A stretch of DNA of 64,000 nucleotides from Candidatus Oxydemutatoraceae bacterium (GTDB lineage: Bacteria > Pseudomonadota > Gammaproteobacteria > Poriferisulfidales > Oxydemutatoraceae), in the NCBI GenBank assembly GCA_965220085.1, contig CBDCOZ010000003.1, forward strand, positions 1,321,683 through 1,385,682, given 5' to 3'. The position numbers and the translations under genes were made by a program. Positions 1 through 21,694 of this stretch are shown here, piece after piece (the stretch's first letter is position 1; each line of letters starts with the position of its first letter). The notes under the pieces are model-generated. The model saw only the letters and a list, made by a program, of their open reading frames with translations, ran no database searches and was not told the DNA's origin.

Positions 1-201
1 TCGCTTTGTTCATACGCTCAAACAGGTTCCGGCCCCAAGGCTACGGACACAGCCCGCAGATGCCGCTTTCCCGCCGCGGGCGCGTTGAAGGCCCTTTAAT
101 CCGGTATCCCTTCTCTGCGCAACGATGCCCATCACGATGCATTGCCTCCCGCTGTTTTCTGCCGCCCGCTCGCGGGTCGTCCGTTCTGCCGCCCGCCGGC
201 G

Positions 202-1056
202 CTAATCGCCGCTCGCCGGCATCTCACCGACAAGCAACTGCGGGTCAAGCCGTTGATCAAACCAATTCACGCGCCAGTCCAGATGCGGGCCGGTCGCCCT
301 GCCGCTGGCGCCGACAGCGCCGATGACCTGTCCCTTTTGCACTCGGTCGCCGGGCCTGGCGTGTGCCGCGTCCAGATGCAACATCGTCGATGAAACACCG
401 TGACCGTGGTCGATCACCATCGTGACACCGGAAAAGTACATGTCGCGCACCAGCGCCACCTCCCCCGCCGCCGGCGCCTTCGCCGGCGTGCCGACAGGAG
501 CGGCAATATCCACCCCGTAATGCGGGCTGCGCGGTTTGCCATTGAGGATGCGGCCGACGCCATAAACGCCGGTGATGATGCCGCGCACCGGCCAAACAAA
601 TGGCTCCAGAAAAAACAACAGGGCGGTATCGCGGGCGCGCACGGCCCCGATCGAACGCCGATCTTGCTCAATCCGCGCATACGCTTCCGGCGGCGGCGTC
701 ACTTTGTCGGCGGCCAGATTATCGATCCGCTGCGTATCGTATTCGCGCCGCGCAATTTCCAGCGCGTGCGATGACACGCCGCCGTCGGCGAGCGTGATCT
801 CAAGCTTTGCCGACCGCGGCGCGTTGCGACCGAAGCCGATGACAAAGCGTCCGTCATCGCTCACCCGCAGCGCGCGTTTTTCAAACACCGCCTTCGCCCC
901 CGGCGCCGCCTTGCCGATGACCATGCCGCCCTGTAGCAAGGGCCCGCTGAGGCTGACACCGCCGCTTTGATAAGACGTATCCGCGGAGGCGCCGAGCGAA
1001 GGCAATACAAGCGTCATAGCGAACGCCGCTGCCTTGCGCCAACAATACGGAGTCAT
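202..1056 (-). CDS. Secreted M23-family metallopeptidase (LytM/lysostaphin-like)
   Basis: 284-aa ORF. The N-terminus MTPYCWRKAAAFAMTLVLPSLGASA has a signal-peptide shape. M23 hallmarks are present: HxxxD (PHYGVDIAAPVGTP), HxH (VIDHGHGVSSTMLHL) and GASGRATGPHLDW. It starts 4 nt after the stop of the upstream PCD-like gene on the same strand. Confidence 0.85.
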   Translation of the reverse strand: MTPYCWRKAAAFAMTLVLPSLGASADTSYQSGGVSLSGPLLQGGMVIGKAAPGAKAVFEKRALRVSDDGRFVIGFGRNAPRSAKLEITLADGGVSSHALEIARREYDTQRIDNLAADKVTPPPEAYARIEQDRRSIGAVRARDTALLFFLEPFVWPVRGIITGVYGVGRILNGKPRSPHYGVDIAAPVGTPAKAPAAGEVALVRDMYFSGVTMVIDHGHGVSSTMLHLDAAHARPGDRVQKGQVIGAVGASGRATGPHLDWRVNWFDQRLDPQLLVGEMPASGD

Positions 1057-1060
1057 GCCA

Positions 1061-1444
1061 TCAGTCGTACTTTATATAGGCAAAGCGTTGGTCGGTCGGC
1101 GCGCCTTCCAAGGCCCCGTCGTCCGCGCCCGGCTGCCATTGAACGACCTCCTCAATTTTTGCCGCCAGCTCAAAGTCCTTGTTGGTCACGCCCTTCGCGG
1201 CATGATTCATCAGTTTGACGATGACAAAGGCATACGACACCGCCAAGTCCGGATGGTGGAAAGCCGCCTCGGACAGGTGCGCAATCGTATTCACGACCAG
1301 CAACGTTCCCTTCCAGCTGTGCGTTTTGTACTTGCGCCGTATCCAACCGTCTTCGTAATACCAATGCGGCAACTCCGCCTCAAGTCGCTGCTTGATGTCC
1401 GCCTCCTCATATGTTTCTTCGCCTTTCAGTTCTCTCCATCCCAT
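1061..1444 (-). CDS. Pterin-4a-carbinolamine dehydratase (PCD/DCoH)-like small protein
   Basis: 127-aa ORF with the PCD signature E-x3-HHPD-x5-Y (SEAAFHHPDLAVSYAF) followed by NHAAKGVTNKDFELA. A strong SD (AAGGAGGA) sits 6 nt upstream of the ATG. It lies 78 nt downstream of the giant gene stop and 4 nt upstream of the M23 peptidase, which suggests an operon. Confidence 0.75.
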   Translation of the reverse strand: MGWRELKGEETYEEADIKQRLEAELPHWYYEDGWIRRKYKTHSWKGTLLVVNTIAHLSEAAFHHPDLAVSYAFVIVKLMNHAAKGVTNKDFELAAKIEEVVQWQPGADDGALEGAPTDQRFAYIKYD

Positions 1445-1522
1445 AGTTATCCTCCTTCTTCTCGGATTGATCTATAAATAATTGTCCGCTGCCGATACGC
1501 CCTCGCAAGGGAGCGATGATGC

Positions 1523-4500
1523 TTATCGCAGCGGGCCTTCAAGGAAGAGACGCAGGCGCAGTCTGATCCCGGCGCGGGGCTCTGTCACCTCAATCGTCAA
1601 TTCCCAGTCATCGGATTCTACCGCCTCCGCGCCGGCAAAGGAAACGCGCACCGCCACGGTGTGTGTCGTTGCCACAGGGCCCAGCGCGGCGGCGGCGGCC
1701 AAACGAATCTCGCCGCTGGCGGAATCTATCGCAAACAGGCCGCCCGCATTATCGCTCAGACTCCACGTCAGGCCGGATGTCACCGGATTATTCGCTTCGT
1801 CGCGCGCGACCAGCGCGATGCCGGATACCGCCGTCGCGGTCGCGGCGTTCTCGGCGATGCGGTTGTCAGCGCTATTGTCGTCCGCAACCCTCAGCGACTC
1901 CAATACATTCGTTACGTTTATCATCAGAGTATATTCGCCGATGCTGCCGTCGCTTGCGGTCGCCGCCGCCCTCACGCGATGGCCGGCGTCGGTTTCGTAG
2001 TCCGGCGCGCGGTCGGCGGACGTACGGACGACGCCGGCTGTGGTAATCACAAATAAGCCGCTCGCATCGTCTGTCAGTTGCCAGATGATACCGCTCAGCG
2101 CGACACCGTTCCTCGTCGCCGCCAGCGATACGCCCGCAACCGCCGTGTCTGCGCTATTCTCAACGATTGTGTTCGTAGTCGGGTCGGTGTCGCTTACCGT
2201 CGGCGCGATAATCGCCTCGTCAAAATCGATCACCGTGATCATCAAGTCCAGCCGGTTGGAAAGCACGGCGCCTTCCGCCGCTTGTGCCGTAATCGTGTGC
2301 GTCGCCGATGTTTCGTAATCTAACATGCCGGCCAAGCGTATCGCGCCGCTGTCGGCATCGATTGCAAACAGCCCGTCGGCGTCCTCGGTCAGGCTCCAGG
2401 TCAGTCCCGATGTCACCGGATTATTCGTTTCGTCGGTTGCGACCAGCGTAATACCGCCGAGTAGCGCGCCGACCGGCGTATTCTCGGCAACCGCAATGGT
2501 TGCGGTGCTGCGGTTTGCGATCGTCAGCGACTCCGGCGCATTGTCAATCGCTATCGCTACCTCCAACTCGGCGTAGACCATGTTATCGGTTTCAACTCTT
2601 ACCCTAACGGTATGCGTTTGTGTATTTTCGTGATCCTCCACAGACCTTGCGAGCACGATCTCGCCGCTAGCGGAGTCTATTGCAAACAGTCCGTCGGCAT
2701 CATCTGGCAAACTCCAGGTCAGCCCCGACGTCACCGGATTATTCGTTTCATCGCTTACAACCAGCATGATGTTGCTCACTGGCGCGCCGACCAGCGTATT
2801 CTTGGCAATACGGCTGTCGGGAACCGCCCCGATGGTGATATCGGGCATAGCCGCGTTGGTAACCGTCAATCTCTTCGGCACATTCCCCACATCCGCCCGC
2901 ACAGCAAAGGGAGCGGACAGATCTCCGTCCCGCTCCGCTCGCACTTGCAACACGTATGTCGGAGTAGTTTCATGATCCAGTTCGGCTCTTGCCAGTGTTA
3001 TCTCGCCGCTGTCGCGGTCTATTGCAAACAAGCCGCCCGCATCATCGCTCAGGATCCAAGTCAGGCCGGAGGTCACCGCGCTGTCGCCGTCGTTTGCGAT
3101 CAGCGTGATGCCGCGCAACGGCGCGCCGACCGTCGCGTTCTCGGCAATCGTGTTCGCGGCAGGGTCGGTATCCGCGATCGCCAGTCCGACCGGCGCCGCG
3201 GAGCGGCTCGCCTCGCCGCCATGGACGATGGCCGCAACCGAATAAGCATGCAATGTGCCCGCGACCCGCTCCGTATCCTCGTAAGTCATCACCGCAGTCG
3301 CAGTCGTTATCGCGATACCGTCGCGATAGACGGCATACGCAATCGCCGGCGGCGATTGCCAATGGCTTGTATCCGGCGCACTCCACGTCAGCACGTTGGC
3401 ATGGTCGGCGTATGTTATCGCCGCATCCCGCGGCCCTTGGCGCAGTTGATAACCGAACTCTTGCCAACTCGGCGTGCCTTCGCCGTCAAAGTCTGTTTTC
3501 AGCGCCGGGTACTCGTCCGCCGCGCCAAAATCCCAGTAATCGATGGAACCGTTCACATCCCACTTGGCATAGATACCGACATGCCCGGTCGGGGACTGCA
3601 ACTCGGCGGCGGTCTTGGCGGCGACACCCGCCGCAGAACCGAAGCCGAAAGCAACGCTCTGTCCGGACACGTCGCTATCCCAGTAGACCGCTTCAAAGAC
3701 GGGATTGCCCCCGGCAACCCTGCCGGCAACGCCGCCGTGATTCCCCGGCGCGACCAACGCGGTCGAATACGCATACTCCAGCCGCATATTGCCGCCGACA
3801 GAACCCAGCAATCCGCCGCCCTGTCGTTGCGCATTCACATAACCGGCGGCATACACATGCTCTATGATGATGTTCGCATCGTTATCGCCGCCGCCGCTCA
3901 AGCCGCCGCCTGCGGCATCGGCGAGCGCGCGACCGGTCGCATAACTCGCGCGCAACACACCGCCGTTGACCGAACCGAGCAACGAGCCGACTTGCTCTGT
4001 CCCTTGCGCGGCTACCGTTGAATAACTCTGCGCAACCGTGCCCCCGGCCAACTCGCCGACCAAGCCGCCGACGGCCGTTCCGCCGCGCACCGAACCGGTG
4101 ACGCCGACGCCGGTAATCGTCGCGCCGGCGGCGGAACCGAACAAGCCCTGCGCATCGGCGTCGCGGCGAATGTAAAGGTTCTCGATTACATGACCGTTGC
4201 CGTTAAACGCCGCGATAAAGCGGTTTTCACGCGCGCCGATCGGCATCCAGCCCGCGCCCGCTGTCCACTCCGAGTTCGTGCTTGCGGCATAGCTGCCGCT
4301 ATCGTTAAAGTCAAGACTCCGTGTCAATTCATAGCCGTTGCAGCCATGCGCGCAGTTCAGATCAGCGGCGCTATGAGGGAAAGCTGTCTCATAGCGCCGT
4401 GAGTCCGCGGATGGGATGCCATCGCCATCCAAGTCCCAGCGCAGCGCGTCAAGCTGCTCGAGGTTAGTGATTTCAATCAAGCCGTTATCGTCGGTGTCGT

Positions 4501-7500
4501 AATCGCGCGAGCGGGATACGGCGACGCTGCGAGCCGCCTCGCCGCCGTCGATCACCGCGACGACATGATAGGTGTAATCGCTGCCGATCGCAGCAGTAGT
4601 ATCGGCATACTCGGCGCGCGCCTCCGCGACACTTGCCAGCGCGAGGCTATCGCGATATACGGCATAGGCGACAACCGTATCCGCGGCGCAGTGCGTCGTA
4701 TCCGGCGCGCTCCAACTCAAGTCTCTGTCGCCGACTCCGCGCACCGTCAGCGCCAAGTCCTCGCGTATCTGACAGCCGAACTCTTGCCAACTCGGTATGC
4801 CGTCGCCGTCAAAATCCGCTTTCAAAGCGGGATATTGTTCGGCGTTGCCGAAATCCCAATTATCGCTGTCGTCCGCGTTCCAGTCGGCGTAGATGCCGCT
4901 GTAAGCCGTCGGCGTTTGCAACTCCGCGCCCGTCTTGCCGGTCGCGCCCGAAGCGGACCCCGAACCGGCCGCGCGCTGTTTGCCGGTGACTTGGGCATCC
5001 CAATAGACGACGGCAAACGTCGGATTGACGCCGTTGACTTCGCCGGCGATACCGCCGCTCGTCGCCGCCGCGGAGTTGATCAATGACGCGGCATAGCTAT
5101 ATTTGATCTGTAGCGCCCCCATGTTGCCAATCAGGCCGCCCGCTGCCCGTTGCGCGTTCACGTATCCCGTCGCATAGACATACTCAACGGTCGTATTCGC
5201 GCTGTTGCCGCTGCCGCCGATGAGACCGCCGGCGACCGCAGTGGCGCTGGTATTGCCGCTGGCATAGCTGGCAAGAACCGCTCCGCCGTCGGCGTAGCCG
5301 ACCAAGGGAGCGACCGCCTCGCCGCCGCGCGCCGATACTGCCGAGTAACTGTTCGTGACGATGCCGCCGGATAATTCGCCGACCAGTCCGCCGCTTTGAT
5401 CGCCGCCAGCGACCGATCCCGTTATGCCGATATTGGACACTGTCGCACTGCTGTTGATGCTGCCAAACAGACCCTGACGATCCGCGGCGCGATCGATGCG
5501 GAGGTTATCGATGCGGCGACCCTTGCCGTCAAATACCGCCGCATACCGGTCTTCCCGGGCGCCGATCGGCAGCCAACCCGCGCCCGTCGACCGCTTGGCG
5601 CTATCGCTGTCCGGCGCATAGCTGTTCGCATCCGCAAAATCCAGATCCCGGGTCAATTCATAACCGCCGCAACCGCTCGGGCACCCCTTGCCGCCGGAAG
5701 ATTTCGGGAAGGCGATCAGATAGTGGCTCCGGTTCTCGGTGCTGGCATGGCCGTCGCCATCGGTATCCCAGCGTATCGCATTCAGTTGATCCAGATTGGA
5801 AATATCAAGCAGGTTATCGTCATCCCGGTCATAATCTATCGTTGCCAATGTCTCAACGTGACGGCTCGCTTCGCCGCCGTTGACGACGGCGGCAATATGG
5901 TAGGTGTGCGCGATACCGCCGACGCTCGTCTCATCGAGATAACGCGCTTCGGCTATGCCGCCCGGCGCGGTCAGACGTATCCCGTCGCGGTAGACCGCAT
6001 ACCCGACCGTCGGCGGCGTCGCGCAGTGAGACACATCGGGCGCGTCCCAAGTCAGTTTTACCGCAGCGCCGACAAGGTAATGCACCGCGTTTTGCGGCGG
6101 CTCGCGCAACTGGCAGCCAAACTCCCGCCAACTCGCCTCGCCGTCGTTGTTGAAATCGACCTTCAATGCCGGGTATTGATTGTTGCTGCCAAAATCCCAA
6201 TAGTCGGCGCCGTCCGCATTCCAGTTGGCATAGATGCCGGCATAGGTCGTCGGCGCTTGCAGTTCGCTGATGGACTTGTCGCCGCCTTCATAGCCGGGGC
6301 CGAGCACATGCAGACCGATCGGATTGTCTCTGCCCGATGCCCCGGCATCCCAATACACGGCGGTCAGCGCATCGCTCCTGAGCGCATTAAAGCCGATAAG
6401 TCCCCCGCTTTCTATCGGGTCGGGGTGAATCAAAGCGGCGCTATAACCGTATTTGAGTTGCGCCGACTGCAAACTGCCGATCAGTCCGCCGGCCCACCTG
6501 TTGAAAGTCGCCATCGTCGCATCTACAAAACCGGTCGCATACACATGCGCTATCTCGCTGTCGTTGCCGCCGCCGCTGTCATCCGCGCGTCCGATCAAGC
6601 CGCCGGCGCGACCGTTGGCATGGGTATTGCCCGTCGCATAACTCGCGCGAATGACGCTGCGCTTTGCGCTTCCGAGCAGAGAGCCGATAGAGCGGTCGCC
6701 CAGCGCCGTCACCGCCGAATAGCTGTCCCTGACCGCGCCGTCGCTCAGTTCGCCAATCAGGCCGCCGACCCGATCGCCCGATGCGCTCAAACTCGACGCG
6801 CTCGCATCCACCGTGCCGGTCACGCCGACATTGCGCACTGTGCCGCCGACGACTGCGCCGAACAAACCCTGACGGTCGGCTTCGCGATCGATGGAAAGGT
6901 TGGCGATTACGTTGCCATTGCCGTTGAAGATCGCCGTGAAAGGCGCGGCTTCGCTGCCGATAGCAACCCAGCCCTCGGCGCTTCCGGCGCTGGCGGCGCG
7001 CAAATCCAAATCGTTGATCAATTCGTAGCCGGCGCAGGTTCCGACGCAACCCATATTGGTCGCGGCATCGACAAACCGCGTGACATACTCTTGCGTGCTC
7101 GCCGACGGCGCGCCGTCGCCGTCCAAATCCCAACGTATCGCAGCGAGTTGCTCCGCGGTGGCGACCTCAATCAAACCGTCGTCGTCGCTGTCATAGTCCC
7201 GCGCCATAGAGACAGCGACGCCGCGTACCGCTTCGCCGCCATGGACAACCGCCGCCACATGATAGGCATATGTGTCGTCGATCACGGCGGCGGTATCGGC
7301 GTAAGTCGTCTCGGCGATGCCTTCGCCCGCGGTCAAAGCCGCGCCGTCACGGTAAACGGCGTAGGTAACCGCTTGCGGCAACGCGCAGTGGTCGGTATCG
7401 GGCGCGCTCCAATTCAAGGTTCTTGAGGTTCCGGCGCCGCTCGCCGTCACGACCGGCGCGCTGCGCGCTTGGCAACCGAATTCCCGCCAACTCGCGGCGC

Positions 7501-13500: not shown

Positions 13501-16500
13501 CGCCGTGCAGCTCGGCGACCAAACCGCCCGCCCGCTCCTGGTGTCGGTCGGTCCTTATCGTGCCGCTGACGCCGATGTTTGAGATGACGCCATCCTCGCC
13601 GACCGAACCGAACAAGCCCTGCCGCCCCGCATTGCGCCGGATATGCAGGTTTTCAATCGCATGGCCGTTGCCGTTAAATGTCGTCGCAAACGGATTGCCG
13701 CTGTCGCCGATTGGCGGCCAACCTTCGCCGCTCATCCAGGTATCGGTGCTGCTCAAAACATGGTCGGCGGGGTCGGAAAAATCCAGATTCGTCAACAACT
13801 CATAGCCGATGCAACCGCTTTTCGGGCAGCCCATGCCCTCCGTCGCAATCAAAAATGCGGCCTGATAATTCGCCCGATTGCCCGCGGTCGCAATACCATC
13901 GCCGTCCAAATCCCAGCGCATCGCGTTGAGTTGATCCAGGTTGGCGATGTCTATCAGACCATCGTCGTCAAAGTCATAATCGCGTCCCGACATCGCATAA
14001 CTGCGGCTTGCTTCGCCGCCGTCTATGACAGCGGCAACGTGATACGCATAGGAACTGGTCGTATTGGCGGTCATATCGGCATAAGATTCGGCCGATAAAT
14101 TATAGGCCCCGGCTAACGCGATGCCGTCGCGGTAAACCCGGTAGCGGATAGGCGGCGCGGCATCCCACTCAGGCGCCGCGGTCGGCGCTTGCCAATTCAG
14201 AGATCGGGCGGTATCGCCATATGCGACCGATAACGCCGGCGGCCCTTGGCGCAACTGGTAACCGAATTCCTGCCACCTCGCCTCGCCGTTGCCGTCAAAA
14301 TCAACTTTCAGCGCGGGGTATTGCGCGGCGCTGCCAAAGTCCCAATGGTCGCCGCCGTCGTTCCAATTGGCATAGATACCGGCATAGTCTGTCGGACTCT
14401 GCAACTCGGCAGTCCCTTTGCCGCCGATGCCGGTGACCGCACCCAACCCGATCGCATCGTTCTTGGCCGAAGTCTCGGTATCCCAATAGACAGCGGTCGC
14501 CTCAACCGAAGCCGCAAAAACACCGCCGACACCGCCGCTCGCGCTGCCTGACGGATGAAGCAGACCGGTGGCATAACTATACTTGACATTCGCATTGCCC
14601 AGATTGCCGATCAAACCGCCGCCGAACTGACTGCTGCCGCCGCGGGTTACGTTCACATAACCGCTCGCATACGTATGTTCAATCGTCCCATTCGCGGAGC
14701 CGCTGTCGTCTCTGCCGAGCAAGCCGCCCGCTTCGGAGTTGGCAAACACATTGCCGGTCGCATAACTCCTGCGGATGGCGGCGCCCGCCCGACTGGCGCC
14801 GAGCAAGGAGCCGACATAAGCCCGGCCTTCGACCGCCACCGCGGAGTAGCTGTCTTCTATCGTGCCGCTCGCGCTATCGCCGATCAGTCCGCCGACATAA
14901 TTATTGTCGCCCGCGTCGATGGATCCGGTGACGCCGACATTGCGCACCACAGCGCCGGCGATCGCGCCGAACAACCCTTGGTAGGGCGCGTTGCGGTCGA
15001 TGCGCAACCTGCGAAGCGTATGGCCGTTGCCGTCAAAGGTCGCCGTAAACGCGGCGCTGTCGCCGCCGATCGGCGGCCAACCGGCGCCGCTCGTCCACGC
15101 CGTGTTGATACGGCCGCTGTGATAACTGTCGGCGGCGGCAAAATTCAAATCGCGCGTCAACTCATAACCGATGCACGCATCGTTGACGCAACCCAGACCG
15201 GAAATCGCGCTGTGAAAAGCGCGGTCGTAGTCCGTTTGATCGCCCGCGGCAACGACGCCATTGCCGTCCAAGTCCCAGCGCATCGCGTTGAATTGTTCCA
15301 ACGTACTCACTTCGATCAGACCGTTGTCATCGCGGTCATAGTCATACGATTCCGATACGATGGCGCTGCGAATCGCCTCGCCGCCGTAAACGTTCGCGGC
15401 GACGTGATAGACGTAGTTGCGGGTCGCGGTCGTGTTCGTATCGGCGTATTCCGTCAGCGCCGTGTTTTCAATCTCCGGCACGAGGATGCCGTCGCGATAG
15501 AGCGCAAACGTGACCATCGGCGCCGGCGCGCAGTGCGAGGTGTCGGGCATATCCCAAGTAAGAGTTCTGGTTGCATGGACTCCGCTCACTGTCAGCGTCG
15601 GCCCCGTGCGTAACTGGCAACCGAACTCCTGCCAACTCGCCTCACCGTTGCCGTCAAAATCGATCTTCAGCGCCGGGTACTGCTCGGACGTGCCAAAATC
15701 CCAGTGGTCGCCATCGCTTGCATTCCAGCTCGCATAGATGCCGGTGTAGGTCGTCGGCAGTTGTAGTTCGGCGCTCGTCCATCCGCTGATGCCATCATCG
15801 GAACCGTCGCCGACACCGTTGCTATTGGCCGAGGTCTCGCGGTCCCAATAGACATCGGTGAACGTCGCATTGACATTCTCACCGATGACACCGCTGCCCA
15901 TTGATACTATGGGGTCGATCAAAGCGGTGGAATAACCGTAGCCGATCTGTCCCGCCTCGACACGACCGATTAAACCACCTAACAATCTACTGTTACTATC
16001 TAAGCCACTTACATACCCGGTCGCATAGACGTGCTCTACGGTGCCCCCGTGCGTAGAAATACGACCAATCAAACCACCCGTCTGCCTATGCGAATTTATA
16101 TTCCCGGTTGCATAACTCGTACGAACCGTGCCCGCCCTGAGTCTGCCGACCAAAGAACCAACTTCGTTGCGTCCGCTCACCGCGACCGTCGAAAAACTGT
16201 CCTCTATCACCCCGTCAACGCGCACCTGACCGGCCAAGCCGCCGGAAGTATCCTGCCCGTTTACCGCACCGGTGACACCGAGGCGGCTGATGACCGCCGG
16301 GGTTTCAACTACACCGAACAAACCTTGCAGAGATGCATCCCTGTCTATATGCAGGTTATAGATCGTATGACCGTTGCCAGCGAATGCCGCTACAAATCTA
16401 TTATCGGCGCCACTGCCGCCAATCGGCTCCCAACCCTCGCCTTCGCGCCACGCATCATGGACTTTGCCGGTAGCGTAGCTGTCGGGGTCATCAAAATCCA

Positions 16501-19500
16501 GGCTTTGATCCAATTCATACCCGCGACACCCCGAAGGCTCGGCGGAGGTCGACGCAACGGCCGGACACCCCATGCCGACCAGCGCGCCGACAAAAGCTTT
16601 GCCGTAGGCGCGGGCGCCGGCGGATGCAATACCGTCGCCGTCCAAGTCAAACCGCACCGCATCCAGTTGCTCCAGCGTGCTGATTTCAATCAAGCCGTCG
16701 TCGTCGCTGTCGTAATCGTTGATCGGCAACACGACGCGGTCACTGCGGCTCGCTTCGCCGCCATGGATAACCGCCGCCACCCAGTAGGCGTTTCTGACAG
16801 CGAGGTCCGCGCCGGTTATGGCGTAACGCGTCTGCGCAAAGTCTATGCCGTCGCTCAAGAGCGCGCCGTTGTGATACACGGCGTAGGTGACCGTCGGCGT
16901 AGCGGGCGACCAGTGCGACACATCGGGCGCGCTCCACTCCAGCGTCCAATCGGTATCGGCCCCGCTGGCGGTCAAATTGGCGGGGCCGTCGCGCAACTGA
17001 TAGCCGAATTCTTGCCAGCTCGCGATGTCGTCATTGTCAAAATCAACTTTCAGCGCCGGGTATTGCGACGCGCTGCCGAAGTCCCAGTAGTCGCCGCCGT
17101 CGGCATTCCAGTTTTGATAGATGCCGACATAGCCTGTCGCCGCCTGCAACCCGGCCGTCGTCTCGCCGCTGATGCCCGCAACCGCCGCCGACCCGCTCGC
17201 GCTGTTCGCGATGCCCGACGTGTCAATATCCCAATAGGCATCGCGGAGTATGGCGTTCGCATTGATCACACCGCCGCCGACTCCGCCGCTGCGTAACACG
17301 CCGGCGGGAAGTTGCGCGGTCGCGTAGCCATAGCCGAGCCGCACCGCTCCCAGATTGCCGATCAAACCGCCGACATTGTAATTAAAACCCCCGCTCGCCA
17401 AACTGATTTGCCCGGTGGCGTATGTATGCTCGACCGTGCTGCCTGTGGAGACGCCGTACACTTGACCGATCAAGCCGCCGATTTCCTGATGACCGCTTAC
17501 ATTGCCCGTCGCATAACTCGCGCGCACCGCGCCTTGCTCGTTGTAGCCGAGCAGCGAACCGACGTCAAATCCGGCCGCGACCGATACCGTCGAGTAACTC
17601 TTTTCAATGCGACCGCCGCCGACCATTGCGGCGACCAAGCCGCCCATCAATTCTTGATACGGGGTCGCAGTAATCGCGCCGGTCACACCGACATTTGAGA
17701 TCATCGCGCCTTCGCCGAGTTCGCCGAACAGCCCTTGTTGGTTCGCCAGACGACCGATATGCAAGCCCTCTATGGCATAGCCGTCGCCGTTAAACGTCGC
17801 TGTGAAGCGATCACCGCTGTCGCCGATCGGCGACCAGCCGTCGCCCGCCGTCCATGCCTCGTTGACAGCGCCGCCGGCATAGCTCGCCGCGGCGCGGAAA
17901 TCGAGCGCGGTCGTCAGTTCATAGCCGCTGCAACCGTCGGCGCAACCCATGCCGGCGATCGCATGCGGGAAAGCCCGCGCGTAGTCTCCGGCGTGATCGG
18001 ATGTCGGCGCGCCGTCGCCGTCCGTGTCCCAACGCAACGCATTCAGTTGTTCCAAGTTGGCGATCTCTATCAAACCGTCGTCGTCGCGGTCGTAGTCATG
18101 CGATCTGGATACGACGCGCGCGCGGATCGCTTCGCCGCCATCGATGACAACGGCGACATGATAGACATAATTCGTGCCGGCGATCGCGGCGGTGTCGGCA
18201 TAACGCATCGCCGTCAGGTTTTTGCCATCCGACAACACGGAGCCGTCGCGATAGACGGCAAATGCGACGGTGGGCGAAGAGGCGCAGTGAGCCGTATCGG
18301 GCATGCCCCAACTGATATCCCTCCGCTGATCGGCGCCTTGCGTCGCCGCCGCGACGCCCGCGCGCAACTGGCATCCGAACTCTTGCCACGTCGCCATGCC
18401 GTCGTTGTTAAAGTCAACTTTCAGAGCCGGGTATTGCTCGCTGTCGCCGAAATCCCAATGATCGTTGGCATCCGCATTCCAGGCGCCATAGATACCGGTA
18501 TACGTCGTCGGCAAGCGCAACTCGGCGGTGGTTTTGCCGATGACACCGTCGGCGGCGCCGTTGCCGACCGCGTTCGTTGCGCCGGAGGTTTGGGTATCCC
18601 AGTAGACGGCGGCAAACACGGAGTCGCTGCCGGTGATCCTGCCGATGACGCCGCCGCGCGCGCTCATATTGGGAGCGACCGCGGCCGTGGCATAGCCATG
18701 CCTCAGTCGCGAACTGTGACTGACGTCGGCGACCAATCCGCTCGCAAATGCGCTCGGGTGATCGCTCGTCGTGCCGACATAACCGGTGGCGTAAACATGC
18801 TCCGCGGTCGCGCTTCCCAAAGTGGAACCGGCCGCGCCGATCAAGCCGCCCGCCGCGTTGATGGCATAGGCGCTGCCGGTCGCATAACTGCTCCGAACCG
18901 CGCCGGTTTCAAGACGACCGACCAGAGAAGCGACGCCATGCGACCCCTCCGCCGTGACCGTTGAGTAGCTGTTGGCAACCGTGCTGCTATTGCTTACCTG
19001 CCCGACCAAGCCGCCGATATTGTCGCTGTTGCTGCCGTTGGACCTTGACGCCACTTTGCCGGTCACGCCGACATTGGCAATCATCGCGTTTTGACCGCCG
19101 ACGCCGAAGAGTCCCTGATGCGACGCCAGACTGTCGATGCGCAAGTTGTAAATCGTGTGACCGTTGCCGTTGAATTCTGTTTTCAGGCGGCGGATGTTGA
19201 CGCCGATCGGCGACCAACCGGCGCCGCTTGCCCATACGGTGTTCGTGGTGCCGGCGGCATAGCTGTCAAGGTCGGCAAAATCCAAATCGCGGAGCAACTC
19301 GTAGCCTCTGCAACTGCCGCTGGCGGGACAACCCATGTTGGCGGCGGCGCCGGGGAAAGCCGCGGCATACGATTCGGCGACCCAGGATAAGGGCGTGCCG
19401 TCGCCGTCCAAATCCCAACGCACCGCATTGAGTTGATGCAGATTGCCGATCTCGATCAGACCGTCATCGTCGCTGTCATAGTCGGCAGCGGATGCATAAG

Positions 19501-19597
19501 ACACAGAACAGCACGCTGCCAGCGCCGCTATTCCGGCAAGCAATATTTTCAACTCGGTAACCCCCTCCAAGTACTTCATGACAGAACTAATATTCAT
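1523..19597 (-). CDS. Giant secreted multi-module protein, 6,024 aa: signal peptide, 12 x (Ca-binding DxDxDG motif + GLUG-like beta-helix + FN3-like) modules, about 5 cadherin-like repeats, conserved FLEGPLR C-terminal tail
   Basis: Uninterrupted 18,075-nt ORF. The N-terminus MNISSVMKYLEGVTELKILLAGIAALAACCSVSYASA is signal-peptide-like, with an AxA site before ADYDSDDDG. I counted 12 DYDxDDDGLIEI...WQEFG[YC]QLR modules by motif. The C-terminal region carries cadherin motifs (GLFAIDxxSGEIxLA, LDHE/YE, YxLxVxA). The protein ends ...AGIRLRLRLFLEGPLR. Confidence 0.9.
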   Translation of the reverse strand: MNISSVMKYLEGVTELKILLAGIAALAACCSVSYASAADYDSDDDGLIEIGNLHQLNAVRWDLDGDGTPLSWVAESYAAAFPGAAANMGCPASGSCRGYELLRDLDFADLDSYAAGTTNTVWASGAGWSPIGVNIRRLKTEFNGNGHTIYNLRIDSLASHQGLFGVGGQNAMIANVGVTGKVASRSNGSNSDNIGGLVGQVSNSSTVANSYSTVTAEGSHGVASLVGRLETGAVRSSYATGSAYAINAAGGLIGAAGSTLGSATAEHVYATGYVGTTSDHPSAFASGLVADVSHSSRLRHGYATAAVAPNMSARGGVIGRITGSDSVFAAVYWDTQTSGATNAVGNGAADGVIGKTTAELRLPTTYTGIYGAWNADANDHWDFGDSEQYPALKVDFNNDGMATWQEFGCQLRAGVAAATQGADQRRDISWGMPDTAHCASSPTVAFAVYRDGSVLSDGKNLTAMRYADTAAIAGTNYVYHVAVVIDGGEAIRARVVSRSHDYDRDDDGLIEIANLEQLNALRWDTDGDGAPTSDHAGDYARAFPHAIAGMGCADGCSGYELTTALDFRAAASYAGGAVNEAWTAGDGWSPIGDSGDRFTATFNGDGYAIEGLHIGRLANQQGLFGELGEGAMISNVGVTGAITATPYQELMGGLVAAMVGGGRIEKSYSTVSVAAGFDVGSLLGYNEQGAVRASYATGNVSGHQEIGGLIGQVYGVSTGSTVEHTYATGQISLASGGFNYNVGGLIGNLGAVRLGYGYATAQLPAGVLRSGGVGGGVINANAILRDAYWDIDTSGIANSASGSAAVAGISGETTAGLQAATGYVGIYQNWNADGGDYWDFGSASQYPALKVDFDNDDIASWQEFGYQLRDGPANLTASGADTDWTLEWSAPDVSHWSPATPTVTYAVYHNGALLSDGIDFAQTRYAITGADLAVRNAYWVAAVIHGGEASRSDRVVLPINDYDSDDDGLIEISTLEQLDAVRFDLDGDGIASAGARAYGKAFVGALVGMGCPAVASTSAEPSGCRGYELDQSLDFDDPDSYATGKVHDAWREGEGWEPIGGSGADNRFVAAFAGNGHTIYNLHIDRDASLQGLFGVVETPAVISRLGVTGAVNGQDTSGGLAGQVRVDGVIEDSFSTVAVSGRNEVGSLVGRLRAGTVRTSYATGNINSHRQTGGLIGRISTHGGTVEHVYATGYVSGLDSNSRLLGGLIGRVEAGQIGYGYSTALIDPIVSMGSGVIGENVNATFTDVYWDRETSANSNGVGDGSDDGISGWTSAELQLPTTYTGIYASWNASDGDHWDFGTSEQYPALKIDFDGNGEASWQEFGCQLRTGPTLTVSGVHATRTLTWDMPDTSHCAPAPMVTFALYRDGILVPEIENTALTEYADTNTTATRNYVYHVAANVYGGEAIRSAIVSESYDYDRDDNGLIEVSTLEQFNAMRWDLDGNGVVAAGDQTDYDRAFHSAISGLGCVNDACIGYELTRDLNFAAADSYHSGRINTAWTSGAGWPPIGGDSAAFTATFDGNGHTLRRLRIDRNAPYQGLFGAIAGAVVRNVGVTGSIDAGDNNYVGGLIGDSASGTIEDSYSAVAVEGRAYVGSLLGASRAGAAIRRSYATGNVFANSEAGGLLGRDDSGSANGTIEHTYASGYVNVTRGGSSQFGGGLIGNLGNANVKYSYATGLLHPSGSASGGVGGVFAASVEATAVYWDTETSAKNDAIGLGAVTGIGGKGTAELQSPTDYAGIYANWNDGGDHWDFGSAAQYPALKVDFDGNGEARWQEFGYQLRQGPPALSVAYGDTARSLNWQAPTAAPEWDAAPPIRYRVYRDGIALAGAYNLSAESYADMTANTTSSYAYHVAAVIDGGEASRSYAMSGRDYDFDDDGLIDIANLDQLNAMRWDLDGDGIATAGNRANYQAAFLIATEGMGCPKSGCIGYELLTNLDFSDPADHVLSSTDTWMSGEGWPPIGDSGNPFATTFNGNGHAIENLHIRRNAGRQGLFGSVGEDGVISNIGVSGTIRTDRHQERAGGLVAELHGGLIEESYSTVALDSAFEVGSLLGFNDKGTVRASYATGYVRGHRGVGGLIGEAYAYSNESTVEHTYATGQLAVAVSDADNDAGGLIGYLGAVRLRYSYSTARVPAEAKRSGAIGGGASAGAPVFDSVYWDVDASGELDKAVSGGYAPGVAGAPTVLLQAFADYEDLYASWNAENTDYWDFGADKQYPALQVDFNNDGDISWQEFGYQLREGPTLTMSGIGASRTLSWTTPDTSHWPASAPIIAYVVYHNDAVAADGLARTSYVDAAIDLDIINTYRVAAVVGGGEASRSAGFVLPIRDYDRDDDGLIEIATLEQLDAVRWDLDSEGPPMFEPQRYQRAFIAALPGMGCPAAVSTATSACRGYELIKDLDFADPASYASGAINAAWTEGDGWPPIGEKFVGNRFETTFDGNGHTIHNLYGGGTPSLRGLFGGIEAPAIVRRVGVTGSIRVQDAAGGLVGRIYDGGTVEESYSAVAVRGTHGVGSLVGDIQGGIVRRSYATGNATGSSQIGGLIGGIASEGASVEHVYATGYADGTRGGANSSVGGLIGRVRAGQIRSAYSTALVYPAKTFHGGFVGRSDAATFDDVYWDVETSAMSNGVGNGSDSGIGGKTSMELQMATTYAGIYANWNADGGDYWDFGGAKQYPALKIDFNNSGEASWQEFGYQLREGPSRLETGSGAPRKLAWQAPDTSHWDPAPAVGYAVYRDGVALTRDDDIRDTAYMDSGAIDGVDYVYQVAAVVHGGEASRSVAVSRSTDYDTDDNGLIEISSLDQLNVVRWDLDGDGVPAASTRAYLLVFPDAALPGMGCPAGSGCRGYELNGDLDFADVGSYVEGSTVTTAWTQGEGWEPIGGSGADNKFTAVFNGNGHTIYNLHIDRDAAAQGLFGIVETPAVISRLGVTGVVRVREVSGGLAGQLRTDGVIEDSFSTVAVRGRFDIGSLVGRLRAGTIRRSYATGNAEGFNRTGGLIGRISAHGGTVEHVYATGYVSGFNRNSESSGGLLGNAGAGQINYGYSTALLDSIASMSGGFVGENVNATFTDVYWDRETSAKNNGVGDGSDDGISGWTSAELQMPTTYTGIYENWNTSDSDHWDFGTSEQYPALKTDFDGYGEASWQEFGCQLREGPADLTVGYQLTSRTLDWSEPELSHWASTPTITYAVYRDGIVLADGIETSSYADVTADADTIYAYHVAAVINGGEASRSVIVSGRDYDIDDDGLIGIGTLEQLNAMRWDMDGDGNPDDADHAADYAAAFPNTVGTVGCPGVCGGYELTRDLDFDNPADYASGAVNSAWADGWDPIGNLTNVFATAFNGNGHTVYNLGIDTNAERQGLFGDARGATIANIGVTGAIARAGNRVGGVVGSLEGGAIANSYSAVSVRANGFAGGIVGYVANIALRTSYATGNVSASNQVGGLLGFVSNASTSLEHAYATGRVDINGDNANRKGGGLIGDAGGARIGYAYATALVVPDLPRSGGAVGVAGSDSVFASVYWDLETSGRDNAADRAIDGIDGKSSAELRSPPGYVGIYADWNTDGGDYWDFGSSKQYPALKIDFNNDGEASWQEFGCQVREKPILAARGTGDVRTLAWSAPDVSHCKANTSVSYNVYRDGEALTAAGEWTATSYVDAQRSADTEYVYHLAAVIDGGEAARQSIRSRIVDYDDDDDGLIEIDSLEQLDAVRWDLGGDGVPATDSSATYAAVFPDPADDMGCPGGCSGYELMRNLDFDDFASYVTGNVSSAWTTGEGWAPIGAPAAGDRFAATFDGNGHTIYNLHIDRDATAQGLFGAIETPARIGNLGVTGAVVGNDVVGGLVGLLRTDSAIENSYSAVAVRGRSEVGSLAGRVRAAAVRRSYATGNAAAANRAGGLIGRIAALGGTAEHAYATGYVSGVNNSGEVLGGLIGDTSAGQISYAYSTALIDSAATMAGGVVGENSHAAFADIYWDRETSGKQNGVGAGSDSGIDGKTSFELRMPTTYTGIYKNWNTDNSDYWDFGASDQYPALKVDFDGDGAASWREFGCQARSAPVVTASGAGTSRTLNWSAPDTDHCALPQAVTYAVYRDGAALTAGEGIAETTYADTAAVIDDTYAYHVAAVVHGGEAVRGVAVSMARDYDSDDDGLIEVATAEQLAAIRWDLDGDGAPSASTQEYVTRFVDAATNMGCVGTCAGYELINDLDLRAASAGSAEGWVAIGSEAAPFTAIFNGNGNVIANLSIDREADRQGLFGAVVGGTVRNVGVTGTVDASASSLSASGDRVGGLIGELSDGAVRDSYSAVTALGDRSIGSLLGSAKRSVIRASYATGNTHANGRAGGLIGRADDSGGGNDSEIAHVYATGFVDATMATFNRWAGGLIGSLQSAQLKYGYSAALIHPDPIESGGLIGFNALRSDALTAVYWDAGASGRDNPIGLHVLGPGYEGGDKSISELQAPTTYAGIYANWNADGADYWDFGSNNQYPALKVDFNNDGEASWREFGCQLREPPQNAVHYLVGAAVKLTWDAPDVSHCATPPTVGYAVYRDGIRLTAPGGIAEARYLDETSVGGIAHTYHIAAVVNGGEASRHVETLATIDYDRDDDNLLDISNLDQLNAIRWDTDGDGHASTENRSHYLIAFPKSSGGKGCPSGCGGYELTRDLDFADANSYAPDSDSAKRSTGAGWLPIGAREDRYAAVFDGKGRRIDNLRIDRAADRQGLFGSINSSATVSNIGITGSVAGGDQSGGLVGELSGGIVTNSYSAVSARGGEAVAPLVGYADGGAVLASYASGNTSATAVAGGLIGGSGNSANTTVEYVYATGYVNAQRAAGGLIGNMGALQIKYSYAASLINSAAATSGGIAGEVNGVNPTFAVVYWDAQVTGKQRAAGSGSASGATGKTGAELQTPTAYSGIYADWNADDSDNWDFGNAEQYPALKADFDGDGIPSWQEFGCQIREDLALTVRGVGDRDLSWSAPDTTHCAADTVVAYAVYRDSLALASVAEARAEYADTTAAIGSDYTYHVVAVIDGGEAARSVAVSRSRDYDTDDNGLIEITNLEQLDALRWDLDGDGIPSADSRRYETAFPHSAADLNCAHGCNGYELTRSLDFNDSGSYAASTNSEWTAGAGWMPIGARENRFIAAFNGNGHVIENLYIRRDADAQGLFGSAAGATITGVGVTGSVRGGTAVGGLVGELAGGTVAQSYSTVAAQGTEQVGSLLGSVNGGVLRASYATGRALADAAGGGLSGGGDNDANIIIEHVYAAGYVNAQRQGGGLLGSVGGNMRLEYAYSTALVAPGNHGGVAGRVAGGNPVFEAVYWDSDVSGQSVAFGFGSAAGVAAKTAAELQSPTGHVGIYAKWDVNGSIDYWDFGAADEYPALKTDFDGEGTPSWQEFGYQLRQGPRDAAITYADHANVLTWSAPDTSHWQSPPAIAYAVYRDGIAITTATAVMTYEDTERVAGTLHAYSVAAIVHGGEASRSAAPVGLAIADTDPAANTIAENATVGAPLRGITLIANDGDSAVTSGLTWILSDDAGGLFAIDRDSGEITLARAELDHETTPTYVLQVRAERDGDLSAPFAVRADVGNVPKRLTVTNAAMPDITIGAVPDSRIAKNTLVGAPVSNIMLVVSDETNNPVTSGLTWSLPDDADGLFAIDSASGEIVLARSVEDHENTQTHTVRVRVETDNMVYAELEVAIAIDNAPESLTIANRSTATIAVAENTPVGALLGGITLVATDETNNPVTSGLTWSLTEDADGLFAIDADSGAIRLAGMLDYETSATHTITAQAAEGAVLSNRLDLMITVIDFDEAIIAPTVSDTDPTTNTIVENSADTAVAGVSLAATRNGVALSGIIWQLTDDASGLFVITTAGVVRTSADRAPDYETDAGHRVRAAATASDGSIGEYTLMINVTNVLESLRVADDNSADNRIAENAATATAVSGIALVARDEANNPVTSGLTWSLSDNAGGLFAIDSASGEIRLAAAAALGPVATTHTVAVRVSFAGAEAVESDDWELTIEVTEPRAGIRLRLRLFLEGPLR
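1560..3190 (-). repeat. Cadherin-like repeat region (about 5 repeats) at the C-terminus of giant protein 1
   Basis: The translation shows ~100-110-aa units with IAENxxxGAPV, TSGLTW[SI]L[SP]DDA, GLFAIDxxSGEIxLA, xLDxExxxTH and VRVRV-type motifs typical of cadherin/Big-like extracellular repeats. Confidence 0.75.
3190..19480 (-). repeat. Array of 12 divergent tandem coding modules (~1.35-1.5 kb each) in giant gene 1
   Basis: Each module reads: DYDxDDDGLIEIxxLEQLNAxRWDLDGDG, then ...MGCP..C.GYEL..DLDF, then GNGHTIxNLxI..QGLFG, then multiple GGL[IV]G/SYATG/VYATG Gly-rich beta-helix repeats, then VYWDxxTSG...WDFG..QYPALKVDF..WQEFG.QLR, then an FN3-like segment (L.W.APD.SHW/C...YxVYRDG...Y.Y.VAAV..GGEA.RS). 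The copies are divergent at nucleotide level, not identical. Confidence 0.85.
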
Positions 19598-21183: not shown

Positions 21184-21378
21184 GATTATCCCTCCGGGTT
21201 TCATAATAATAATACTAATTCAGAAGCTATAATCAATAGCCTTCGTGCCGGATAATAGCGCTTATTTCGGGAGTCACAACCAACTAATAGACAGGCGGTT
21301 TTAATTGTCTGACGAACGGTCTGACAGCGCCAATTCACAGCGTGATTTTTCTGCAAAGAAGCATTTGCGCGAGTGCCG

Positions 21379-21693: not shown

Positions 21694-21694
21694 A

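What the first reader, a model, noticed from the sequence alone, without database searches (positions are those of the whole stretch)
202..19597. Giant gene 1 appears co-transcribed with a PCD/DCoH-like gene and a secreted M23 peptidase
Same strand, 78-nt and 4-nt gaps, and a strong SD on the PCD-like gene. A pterin-4a-carbinolamine-dehydratase fold protein and a LytM-type peptidoglycan peptidase downstream of a 6,024-aa surface protein is an unexpected functional combination. The M23 peptidase could open peptidoglycan for export or anchoring of the giant protein. The PCD/DCoH fold protein could act as a small cofactor or chaperone rather than a dehydratase.
Basis: inference. Interest (0 to 1): 0.5.

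Follow-up and report, generated by a model that had tools for sequence, protein, structure and literature searches.

The report
Housekeeping gene pair beside giant genes
Two ordinary, widely conserved genes (a pterin-recycling enzyme and a cell-wall peptidase) sit between giant surface-protein genes here, but relatives keep the same pair without any giant gene, so the neighbourhood looks like an accident of genome history rather than a new functional module.

Summary
Three minus-strand ORFs lie at 1523-19597 (6,024 aa), 1061-1444 (127 aa, Pterin_4a) and 202-1056 (284 aa, Peptidase_M23), with 78-nt and 4-nt gaps and an AAGGAGG Shine-Dalgarno before the PCD gene.

The functional reading is mostly not supported.
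- The PCD keeps the whole catalytic motif, including the His triad, and is 70-86% identical in hundreds of Gammaproteobacteria.
- The M23 protein belongs to a widespread periplasmic subfamily.
- Four other genomes without giant genes carry PCD -> HAD phosphatase -> M23 -> HIT(-), two of them with a divergent formate dehydrogenase upstream. The PCD-M23 linkage therefore does not depend on the giants and is probably older.
- None of 84 PCD loci from other genomes has a giant homologue within 10 kb.
- The second giant gene in the window (13,236 aa) has neither gene downstream.
- Only the closest relative (L086) also has giant 3' ends next to these genes, in a different order (giant -> M23 -> decayed giant remnant -> PCD).

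PCD and M23 are probably co-transcribed. Whether the giant gene shares their transcript cannot be decided from sequence. Verdict: ordinary genes caught in a lineage-specific, rearranging array of giant genes. Low interest.

The parts
1523..19597 (-). Giant gene 1 (6,024 aa). It has an N-terminal Sec-type signal peptide, about 12 units of roughly 450 aa (DxDxDGLIEI / GLUG motifs / YWDFG..QYPALK / FN3-like 'RGI_lyase' beta domain), C-terminal cadherin-like repeats, and the terminal motif IRLRLRLFLEGPLR*.
   Evidence: ORF list. Sequence and composition. Pfam Glug, RGI_lyase and Cadherin.
1445..1522 (-). 78-nt spacer between giant 1 and PCD. The first ~55 nt are homologous to the 3' flank of the giant gene in relative L086. 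The last ~30 nt (AATTATTT...AAGGAGG) resemble the PCD leader in L086 and carry the Shine-Dalgarno sequence. GC is 49% against about 62% in the flanking genes.
   Evidence: Sequence. Alignments A2 and A4. No promoter or terminator consensus. Fold no better than shuffles. GC.
1061..1444 (-). PCD / 4a-hydroxytetrahydropterin dehydratase gene (127 aa). The catalytic motif is complete (E58, H62, H63, P64, Y70, H80, D89). It carries a subfamily-specific conserved C-terminal extension of about 25 aa (WQPG...EG.P.D.RF.YIKYD).
   Evidence: Pfam 83.5 bits. NCBIfam NF002017 78.6 bits against a cut-off of 80. 6,247 homologues, the best 120 at 74-100% identity. Invariant columns. PDB alignments to 2ebb and 2v6u.
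202..1056 (-). Secreted M23 metallopeptidase gene (284 aa). It has a signal peptide, an N-terminal domain and an M23 domain with H179xxxD183, H227 and H258-L-D260 (Asp in place of the second His of HxH). The start is 4 nt after the PCD stop, and there is no Shine-Dalgarno of its own.
   Evidence: Pfam 91.1 bits. Full-length match to PDB 2hsi, E = 6.5e-43, and to C. jejuni M23 structures 6jmx etc.. NCBIfam best match Pgp3, below cut-off. HLDW in 119 of 120 closest homologues. Residue numbering.
1..201 (-). Spacer downstream of M23 leading into a third giant-family gene. An ATG at 13..11 (MNKAKSLSV..., resembling the N-terminus of giant 2) lies 188 nt after the M23 stop. The body of that gene lies outside the window and is seen on contig L001 from the same genome.
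   Evidence: L001 gene calls. Translation of L001 6286-7056 shows the same N-terminal architecture and GLUG motif. Coordinate mapping and frame check.
23013..62723 (-). Giant gene 2 (13,236 aa), a paralogue with the same unit architecture and the same C-terminal motif (IRIRLRVFLEGPLR*). It serves as an internal control, because its downstream genes are not PCD or M23.
   Evidence: ORF list. Sequence. Downstream ORFs 22081-22860 and 21695-22084 (split N6_N4 DNA methylase) and 20344-21204 (coiled-coil repeat protein).

Best explanation
PCD and M23 are two ordinary housekeeping genes that form an old, loosely conserved neighbourhood in this gammaproteobacterial lineage: formate dehydrogenase(-) | PCD -> HAD phosphatase -> M23 | HIT(-). 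In this genome the neighbourhood has been engulfed by a lineage-specific, rearranging array of giant GLUG/cadherin-repeat genes.

PCD is a cytoplasmic 4a-hydroxytetrahydropterin dehydratase with an intact active site. M23 is a Sec-exported periplasmic zinc peptidase that most likely cleaves peptidoglycan cross-links for normal wall growth or shape.

M23 is most likely translated by coupling to PCD on a shared mRNA. That mRNA may start in the 3' end of giant gene 1, in the 78-nt spacer, or arise by read-through from the giant gene. Neither protein is a dedicated accessory of the giant proteins.

Shown: family membership, motif conservation, the synteny patterns, and the absence of consensus promoter or terminator signals. 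Inferred: enzymatic activities, co-transcription of PCD and M23, and the order of evolutionary events.
For: (1) PCD is very widespread and well conserved. There are 6,247 homologues, and the top 120 are at least 74% identical. The catalytic residues are invariant.

(2) The M23 subfamily is equally widespread in Alpha- and Gammaproteobacteria: 6,611 hits, with neighbours at 50-58% identity.

(3) The giant unit has only 7 weak, fragmentary hits in the same database.

(4) PCD -> HAD -> M23 -> HIT(-) without any giant occurs in L088, L111, L112 and L009. A divergent FdsA/FdsB lies upstream in L111 and L112.

(5) M23 -> HIT(-) is kept in L089, L090 and L091/L092. M23 overlaps unrelated upstream genes by 4 nt in L091 (ABC ATPase) and L093 (xseA).

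(6) 0 of 84 PCD loci from other genomes have a giant homologue within 10 kb.

(7) Giant 2 in the window lacks PCD and M23 downstream.

(8) In the one relative with giants (L086) the order is different (giant -> M23 -> decayed giant remnant -> PCD -> HIT(-) -> ccmABCDE). This shows rearrangement rather than a fixed operon.

(9) GC3 of PCD (0.70), M23 (0.74) and giant 1 (0.71) is alike, so all are resident genes.
Against: - Both genomes that possess this giant family have giant 3' ends directly abutting PCD and/or M23. In this genome the pair is flanked by giants on both sides. With only two genomes, a functional reason for the adjacency cannot be excluded.
- No terminator or promoter consensus separates giant 1 from PCD, so co-transcription with the giant is possible.
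- No other genome carrying the giants was found, so giant-centred synteny rests on three giant 3' ends.
Confidence: 0.75

Rival explanations
1. Giant gene 1, PCD and M23 form one functional operon. The M23 peptidase locally opens peptidoglycan so that the giant protein can cross or be anchored, and the PCD-fold protein serves as a small accessory factor.
For: - Same strand, short gaps, and no consensus terminator or promoter between the genes.
- In the closest relative, M23 directly follows a giant 3' end, and PCD directly follows a decayed giant 3' end.
- In this genome the pair is sandwiched between giants 1 and 3.
Against: - PCD and M23 occur together, or with other partners, in many genomes with no giant.
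- Giant 2 has neither gene downstream.
- Gene order differs between the only two giant-bearing genomes.
- PCD keeps every catalytic residue and is under strong purifying selection across lineages that lack giants.
- The HLD active-site variant of M23 is a trait of the whole widespread subfamily, not a giant-linked specialisation.
Confidence: 0.1
2. PCD and M23, with the HAD phosphatase and HIT protein in relatives, are themselves a functional unit. One possibility is a link between pterin or nucleotide metabolism and cell-envelope remodelling. On this reading their linkage is selected and not merely inherited.
For: The same-strand PCD -> HAD -> M23 string with a convergent HIT gene recurs in L009, L088, L111 and L112. 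The pair stays within 2.5 kb in L086 and L089 despite rearrangement.
Against: - 79 of the 80 best PCD loci among species-representative genomes have no M23 within 10 kb. This includes close relatives where PCD is followed by a sulfotransferase and DsrC.
- M23 orthologues in L090-L094 have no PCD nearby.
- There is no known biochemical connection. One protein is cytoplasmic and the other periplasmic.
Confidence: 0.1
3. There is no operon at all. Each of the three genes has its own promoter, and the short gaps merely reflect a compact 2-Mb genome.
For: - The AT-rich 78-nt spacer (49% GC) and a strong PCD Shine-Dalgarno that is conserved whatever the upstream gene is.
- The PCD leader resembles that in L086, where the upstream giant is a dead remnant.
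Against: - A 4-nt gap with no Shine-Dalgarno before M23 leaves no room for a promoter outside the PCD coding sequence.
- M23 orthologues typically overlap or abut an upstream gene.
- No sigma-70 consensus in the gaps.
Confidence: 0.05

Closest known systems
Bacterial pterin-4a-carbinolamine dehydratase (PhhB / COG2154, Pfam PF01329; e.g. PDB 2ebb, 2v6u)
   Same: - Pfam match far above threshold, covering the whole domain.
- The His-His-Pro, Tyr, His and Asp active-site pattern is intact.
- Size and fold class are the same.
- A divergent molybdopterin formate dehydrogenase is the commonest neighbour in relatives (17 of 82 loci). That fits the proposed role of COG2154 proteins in Moco metabolism (PMC3223725, table entry citing Naponelli et al. 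2008).
   Different: - No phenylalanine hydroxylase (phhA) gene lies next to it.
- It scores just below the NCBIfam equivalog cut-off (78.6 against 80).
- It carries a conserved C-terminal extension of about 25 aa of unknown role.
- Here it is flanked by a giant gene and an M23 peptidase.
Periplasmic M23 peptidoglycan peptidases with the 2hsi (Pseudomonas aeruginosa) and Campylobacter jejuni M23 (PDB 6jmx) architecture
   Same: - Full-length alignment to 2hsi (E = 6.5e-43) and alignment to 6jmx over residues 103-276.
- NCBIfam's best match is the Pgp3 model.
- Signal peptide, N-terminal domain plus M23 domain, HxxxD and the catalytic His residues.
   Different: - The second His of the HxH motif is Asp (H258-L-D260). 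This holds in 119 of 120 closest homologues, so it defines a subfamily.
- The score is below the Pgp3 family cut-off (143 against 300).
- Activity has not been tested.
Specialised peptidoglycan hydrolases encoded inside gene clusters of envelope-spanning machines (e.g. VirB1, EtgA, FlgJ; from general knowledge)
   Different: - Those enzymes are mostly lytic transglycosylases or muramidases that are co-inherited with their machine.
- Here the M23 gene is inherited independently of the giants and belongs to a general housekeeping subfamily.
Giant repetitive surface or adhesin-like proteins with GLUG and cadherin-like repeats
   Same: Giants 1, 2 and 3 have GLUG motifs, FN3-like and cadherin domains, acidic Ca-binding-like DxDxDG motifs and extreme length.
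   Different: - They have a Sec-type N-terminal signal instead of an obvious type I secretion signal.
- They share a short C-terminal motif (RLRLFLEGPL[RQ]*) that matched nothing in the JGI metagenome contigs that were scanned.
- The repeat unit itself has only 7 fragmentary hits in the protein database.

Membership tests
PCD/DCoH (Pfam PF01329, COG2154) | Significant match to the family profile over the whole domain | tested here: met
   Pterin_4a at 83.5 bits against a cut-off of 26, residues 12-100 on profile positions 3-91 of 91.
PCD/DCoH (Pfam PF01329, COG2154) | Catalytic signature [DE]-x3-H-H-P-x5-[YW]-x9-H-x8-D, including the His triad (signature recalled from Naponelli et al. 2008, a paper not held in the library) | tested here: met
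   E58, H62, H63, P64, Y70, H80 and D89 are present and invariant in 27 of 27 homologues. HHP and H80 align with the same residues in PDB 2v6u and 2ebb.
PCD/DCoH (Pfam PF01329, COG2154) | Passes an NCBIfam equivalog model for 4a-hydroxytetrahydrobiopterin dehydratase | tested here: inconclusive
   The best model, NF002017, gives 78.6 bits against a cut-off of 80.
PCD/DCoH (Pfam PF01329, COG2154) | Dehydratase activity, or complementation of a PhhA-dependent assay | not testable with these tools
   Requires an enzyme assay or E. coli complementation.
phhAB-type operon | PCD gene adjacent to an aromatic amino-acid hydroxylase gene | tested here: not met
   The only neighbours in the window are giant 1 and M23. 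The commonest neighbours in 82 relatives' loci are formate dehydrogenase subunits.
Peptidase M23 (Pfam PF01551) | Significant match to the M23 domain profile | tested here: met
   91.1 bits against a cut-off of 28.7, residues 178-272 on profile positions 2-96 of 96. There are 34 PDB relatives.
Peptidase M23 (Pfam PF01551) | HxxxD zinc-binding motif | tested here: met
   H179-Y-G-V-D183. An H[YF]G[VIL]D motif is present in all 120 closest homologues.
Peptidase M23 (Pfam PF01551) | HxH motif (catalytic His plus third zinc ligand) | tested here: not met
   The motif is H258-L-D260. 119 of 120 closest homologues also have HLDW, whereas 2hsi has HMH and 6jmx has HLH. Asp could still bind zinc, but activity is untested.
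Peptidase M23 (Pfam PF01551) | Export signal | tested here: inconclusive
   A signal-peptide-like N-terminus with ASA|DT is seen by inspection only. The public annotation uses a shorter start (P0121).
Operon giant1-PCD-M23 | Same strand and short intergenic distances | tested here: met
   The gaps are 78 nt and 4 nt.
Operon giant1-PCD-M23 | No terminator or promoter between the genes | tested here: inconclusive
   There are no consensus sites and no stable hairpin in the spacer. Consensus scans cannot exclude non-canonical signals.
Operon giant1-PCD-M23 | Gene order conserved in relatives | tested here: not met
   Giant-PCD: 0 of 84 loci. The only giant-bearing relative has a different order. 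The PCD-(HAD)-M23 part alone is conserved in four genomes.
Operon giant1-PCD-M23 | A transcript spanning the junctions | not testable with these tools
   No expression data are available.
Machine- or substrate-dedicated peptidoglycan hydrolase | Co-inheritance with the exported substrate or machine | tested here: not met
   M23 orthologues are found in many genomes lacking the giants and next to unrelated genes.

The most novel reading that the evidence does not exclude
The adjacency may not be accidental. In the only two genomes known to carry this giant-protein family, giant 3' ends abut M23 and PCD despite rearrangement. The housekeeping M23 endopeptidase could therefore have been recruited, by position and co-expression, to loosen peptidoglycan for passage or anchoring of proteins of 6,000-13,000 aa. 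These proteins carry a Sec signal and a previously unseen C-terminal motif (RLRLFLEGPL[RQ]).
Probability: 0.08. Interest if true: 0.55.

Novelty: new member of a known kind. Interest (0 to 1): 0.2.

Why it matters
The evidence instead shows two normal housekeeping genes trapped in an expanding array of giant genes.

That is useful mainly as a caution. Tight spacing next to a striking gene is not evidence of shared function. The M23 gene in particular habitually rides at the end of whatever operon lies upstream.

The side observations may be worth separate follow-up:
- the array of at least three giant genes, and their shared C-terminal motif;
- the decayed giant remnant in a relative;
- the HxD variant that defines the M23 subfamily.

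Tried and rejected
- **Giant-centred synteny from databases.** A protein search with the 206-aa C-terminal fragment of the L086 giant gave only 7 short GLUG fragments, none ending in the motif. Two DNA-pattern scans of the JGI metagenome contigs for the C-terminal motif plus stop codon gave 0 hits, then 16 hits that were all chance matches with upstream stop codons. Giant-centred synteny therefore rests on the window, L001 and L086.
- **Reaching beyond the window.** A look-up of the annotated 271-aa M23 product, meant to reach the 2.05-Mb chromosome, found no record. The cluster look-up gave no organism names.
- **Known RNA elements.** Rfam found nothing in the whole window, for example no Moco riboswitch before PCD.
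- **Shared giant promoter module.** The upstream regions of giants 1, 2 and 3 do not align meaningfully.
- **Terminator hairpin after giant stop codons.** The flanks of giant 1 and the L086 giant are homologous over about 55 nt, but they do not fold better than shuffles and have no U-tract.
- **Manual search for a sigma-70 promoter in the 78-nt spacer.** There is no acceptable -35/-10 pair, in agreement.
- **Naponelli et al. 2008 (PMC2287330).** The paper could not be read, so the motif is cited from memory and the Moco link from PMC3223725.

Full report
**1. Observation**

- 1523..19597 (6,024 aa)
- 1061..1444 (127 aa)
- 202..1056 (284 aa)

The gaps are 78 nt and 4 nt. AAGGAGG lies 7 nt upstream of the PCD start codon, and no Shine-Dalgarno precedes M23.

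Pfam assigns Pterin_4a (83.5 bits) and Peptidase_M23 (91.1 bits). The giant protein has Glug motifs, FN3-like 'RGI_lyase' beta domains and C-terminal cadherin domains. Its N-terminus looks like a signal peptide.

A consensus scan finds no sigma-70-type promoter or intrinsic terminator in either gap. The 78-nt spacer folds no better than shuffled sequence (z = -0.49). Rfam finds nothing in the window.

Co-transcription is compatible with the sequence but is not demonstrated.

**2. The PCD gene**

It is. E58-x3-H62-H63-P64-x5-Y70-x9-H80-x8-D89 matches the COG2154 catalytic signature (recalled from Naponelli et al. 2008, which could not be read). Every one of these residues is invariant in an alignment of 27 homologues. 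They align with the HHP and His residues of the solved PCD structures 2ebb and 2v6u.

The protein is remarkably conserved. There are 6,247 database relatives, and the best 120 are 74-100% identical. The nearest species-representative genomes are MAGs labelled Ca. Porisulfidus, Ca. Oxydemutatoraceae, Methylococcales and the like.

This is the signature of an enzyme under strong purifying selection, not of a fold recruited as an accessory to a lineage-specific giant protein.

Across 82 loci its commonest neighbour is a divergently transcribed NAD-linked molybdopterin formate dehydrogenase (FdsB in 17 loci, FdsA in 14). [quoted passage not shown]

**3. The M23 gene**

The protein aligns over its full length with the P. 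aeruginosa M23 structure 2hsi (E = 6.5e-43). It also aligns with the C. jejuni M23 peptidase structures 6jmx etc.. The best NCBIfam model is Pgp3, below cut-off.

The residues present are H179xxxD183, H227 and H258. The second His of the HxH motif is Asp (H258-L-D260). This is not a local degeneration, because 119 of the 120 closest homologues read HLDW. It defines a widespread subfamily in Alpha- and Gammaproteobacteria.

Read from Met1, the N-terminus is a good signal peptide. The public annotation's shorter start (P0121, 271 aa) is less convincing.

**4. Synteny centred on PCD**

I fetched 80 loci with 10-kb flanks from species-representative genomes and 4 loci from the 84%-identical relative. 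I then searched them with the window's M23 protein and giant protein.
- No locus has a giant homologue.
- Only L009 has M23, about 2 kb downstream of PCD.

In the 84%-identical relative, PCD lies between a divergent formate dehydrogenase and a sulfotransferase plus DsrC.

**5. Synteny centred on M23 and on the pair**

| Loci | Arrangement |
|---|---|
| L088, L111, L112, L009 (L009 with wider spacing) | PCD -> HAD-type acid phosphatase -> M23 -> HIT(-). L111 and L112 also have FdsA/FdsB(-) upstream of PCD. |
| L089 | M23 -> HIT(-) -> PCD -> ccmABCDE |
| L090, L091/L092 | M23 -> HIT(-) -> carAB -> greA |
| L093/L094 | M23 follows xseA |

M23 overlaps the upstream ABC ATPase gene by 4 nt in L091, and overlaps xseA by 4 nt in L093. 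None of these loci contains giant-family sequence.

Two conclusions follow:
- The PCD -> M23 same-strand linkage is independent of the giants and probably older. The window's arrangement looks like that string with the HAD gene lost.
- This M23 gene habitually sits tightly behind whatever gene lies upstream. A 4-nt gap therefore argues for co-transcription, but says nothing about shared function.

**6. The giants around the pair**

Contig L001 comes from the same genome (100% identity) and extends past the window start. It shows a third giant-family gene beginning 188-227 nt downstream of M23. PCD and M23 are therefore sandwiched between giants.

The closest relative available is L086 (PCD 86% identical, M23 68%). 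It reads as follows:
1. a giant 3' end (...LLLRLRLFLEGPLQ*);
2. about 80-100 nt of spacer;
3. M23;
4. a 429-nt spacer that contains a decayed giant 3' end (...YNVYRDG...VI*HVAVAVNGG...LRLHLFLEGAPR*, with an in-frame stop), ending 35 nt before PCD;
5. PCD;
6. HIT(-);
7. ccmABCDE.

The first ~55 nt after the giant-1 stop codon are homologous to the flank after the L086 giant. The last ~30 nt before PCD resemble the PCD leader of L086.

In this small lineage, then, giants have been gained, lost and shuffled at this site. The order of M23 and PCD relative to the giants is not fixed. Giant 2 in the same window (13,236 aa) ends with the same motif. It is followed by a low-GC insert carrying a split DNA methylase and a coiled-coil protein, not by PCD or M23.

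**7. Could the giants nevertheless need M23?**

Giant-centred synteny could not be extended. The giant repeat unit has only 7 fragmentary relatives in the 5.8-billion-protein database. The C-terminal motif has no true match in the JGI metagenome contigs.

With only two giant-bearing genomes, both showing adjacency, a positional recruitment of M23 cannot be excluded. I give it about 10%.

Against it stand four points:
- the independent and far wider inheritance of M23 and PCD;
- the variable order;
- the counter-example of giant 2;
- the lack of any giant-specific feature in either protein.

**8. Most likely mechanism**

PCD acts in the cytoplasm as a 4a-hydroxytetrahydropterin dehydratase, possibly serving pterin or Moco metabolism. 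M23 is exported by Sec and trims peptidoglycan cross-links as part of normal wall growth. M23 translation is probably coupled to PCD on one mRNA.

Whether that mRNA begins inside the last part of giant 1, in the AT-rich spacer (49% GC), or at the giant-1 promoter is unresolved. GC3 values are 0.70 for PCD, 0.74 for M23 and 0.71 for giant 1, so none of them is a recent import.

**9. Verdict**

The genes are new members of known families. Interest in this specific finding is low (0.2). The giant-gene array and its C-terminal motif are the more unusual features of the region.

Noticed in passing
window 1-201 and L001 6060-7056: A third giant-family gene starts just downstream of M23. An ATG lies at window 13..11 (minus strand), and the gene caller places a GTG start at L001 6286. 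Its N-terminus resembles giant 2 (…LSGAVSAQAPPQT…DDNGLIEI…). The ATG and the downstream ORF are out of frame on the Logan contig, which means either an assembly error or a real frameshift just outside the window.
   Followed up: partly
window 1523-1567 and 23013-23057; L086 577-621: All giant genes end in the same short motif, [IL]R[LI]RLR[LV]FLEGPL[RQ]*. It is conserved at the protein level with synonymous differences in the DNA, whatever domain precedes it. It loosely resembles the start of a repeat unit (L.QL.A.RWDLDGDG.P). No true match was found in the JGI metagenome contigs. It may be an unrecognised C-terminal sorting or capping signal.
   Followed up: partly
L086 1740-1962 and L087 170-392: A decayed remnant of a giant-gene 3' end, with an in-frame stop and the motif degraded to LRLHLFLEGAPR*, lies 35 nt upstream of PCD in the closest relative. 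This shows that giant genes are lost as well as gained at this site.
   Followed up: yes
window 277-291 (M23 residues 256-260): The M23 HxH motif reads H-L-D. 119 of the 120 closest homologues share HLDW, so a large proteobacterial M23 subfamily has Asp where the third zinc ligand is normally His. Whether these proteins are active peptidases is untested.
   Followed up: partly
window 23013-62723: Giant gene 2 encodes 13,236 aa in one uninterrupted ORF. Together with giant 1 this is about 58 kb of coding sequence in a genome whose largest contig is 2.05 Mb.
   Followed up: no
window 20344-22860: A low-GC insert (GC3 about 0.5, against 0.7-0.8 in the neighbours) lies between giants 2 and 1. It holds a DNA N6/N4 methylase split into two ORFs (22081-22860 and 21695-22084, the latter with Pfam N6_N4_Mtase at 88.8 bits). 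It also holds a 286-aa coiled-coil protein with a C-terminal hydrophobic tail, encoded by 4.6 copies of an 87-nt tandem repeat (20474-20874).
   Followed up: partly
window 1061-1140 (PCD residues 102-127): The PCD subfamily carries a conserved C-terminal extension of about 25 aa (WQPG...ALEG.P.D.RF.YIKYD) beyond the Pfam domain. Its function is unknown. The whole protein is 70-86% identical across Methylococcales, Thauera/Azoarcus and MAGs labelled Ca. Porisulfidus and Ca. Oxydemutatoraceae.
   Followed up: no
L002-L005, L111, L112 and 17 of 82 PCD loci: The commonest neighbour of this PCD subfamily is a divergently transcribed NAD-dependent molybdopterin formate dehydrogenase (FdsB/FdsA). This fits the proposed link between COG2154 proteins and Moco metabolism.
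   Followed up: partly
window 19490-19597 (giant 1 N-terminus): The giant-1 signal peptide contains a possible lipobox (L-A-A-C) ahead of the ASA|AD site, so the protein could be lipid-anchored. This is seen by inspection only.
   Followed up: no
window 1018-1056: The public annotation of the same genome starts M23 at Met14 (271 aa, P0121). The Logan gene call and the signal-peptide logic favour Met1 (284 aa). The choice changes the PCD-M23 gap from 4 nt to 43 nt.
   Followed up: partly
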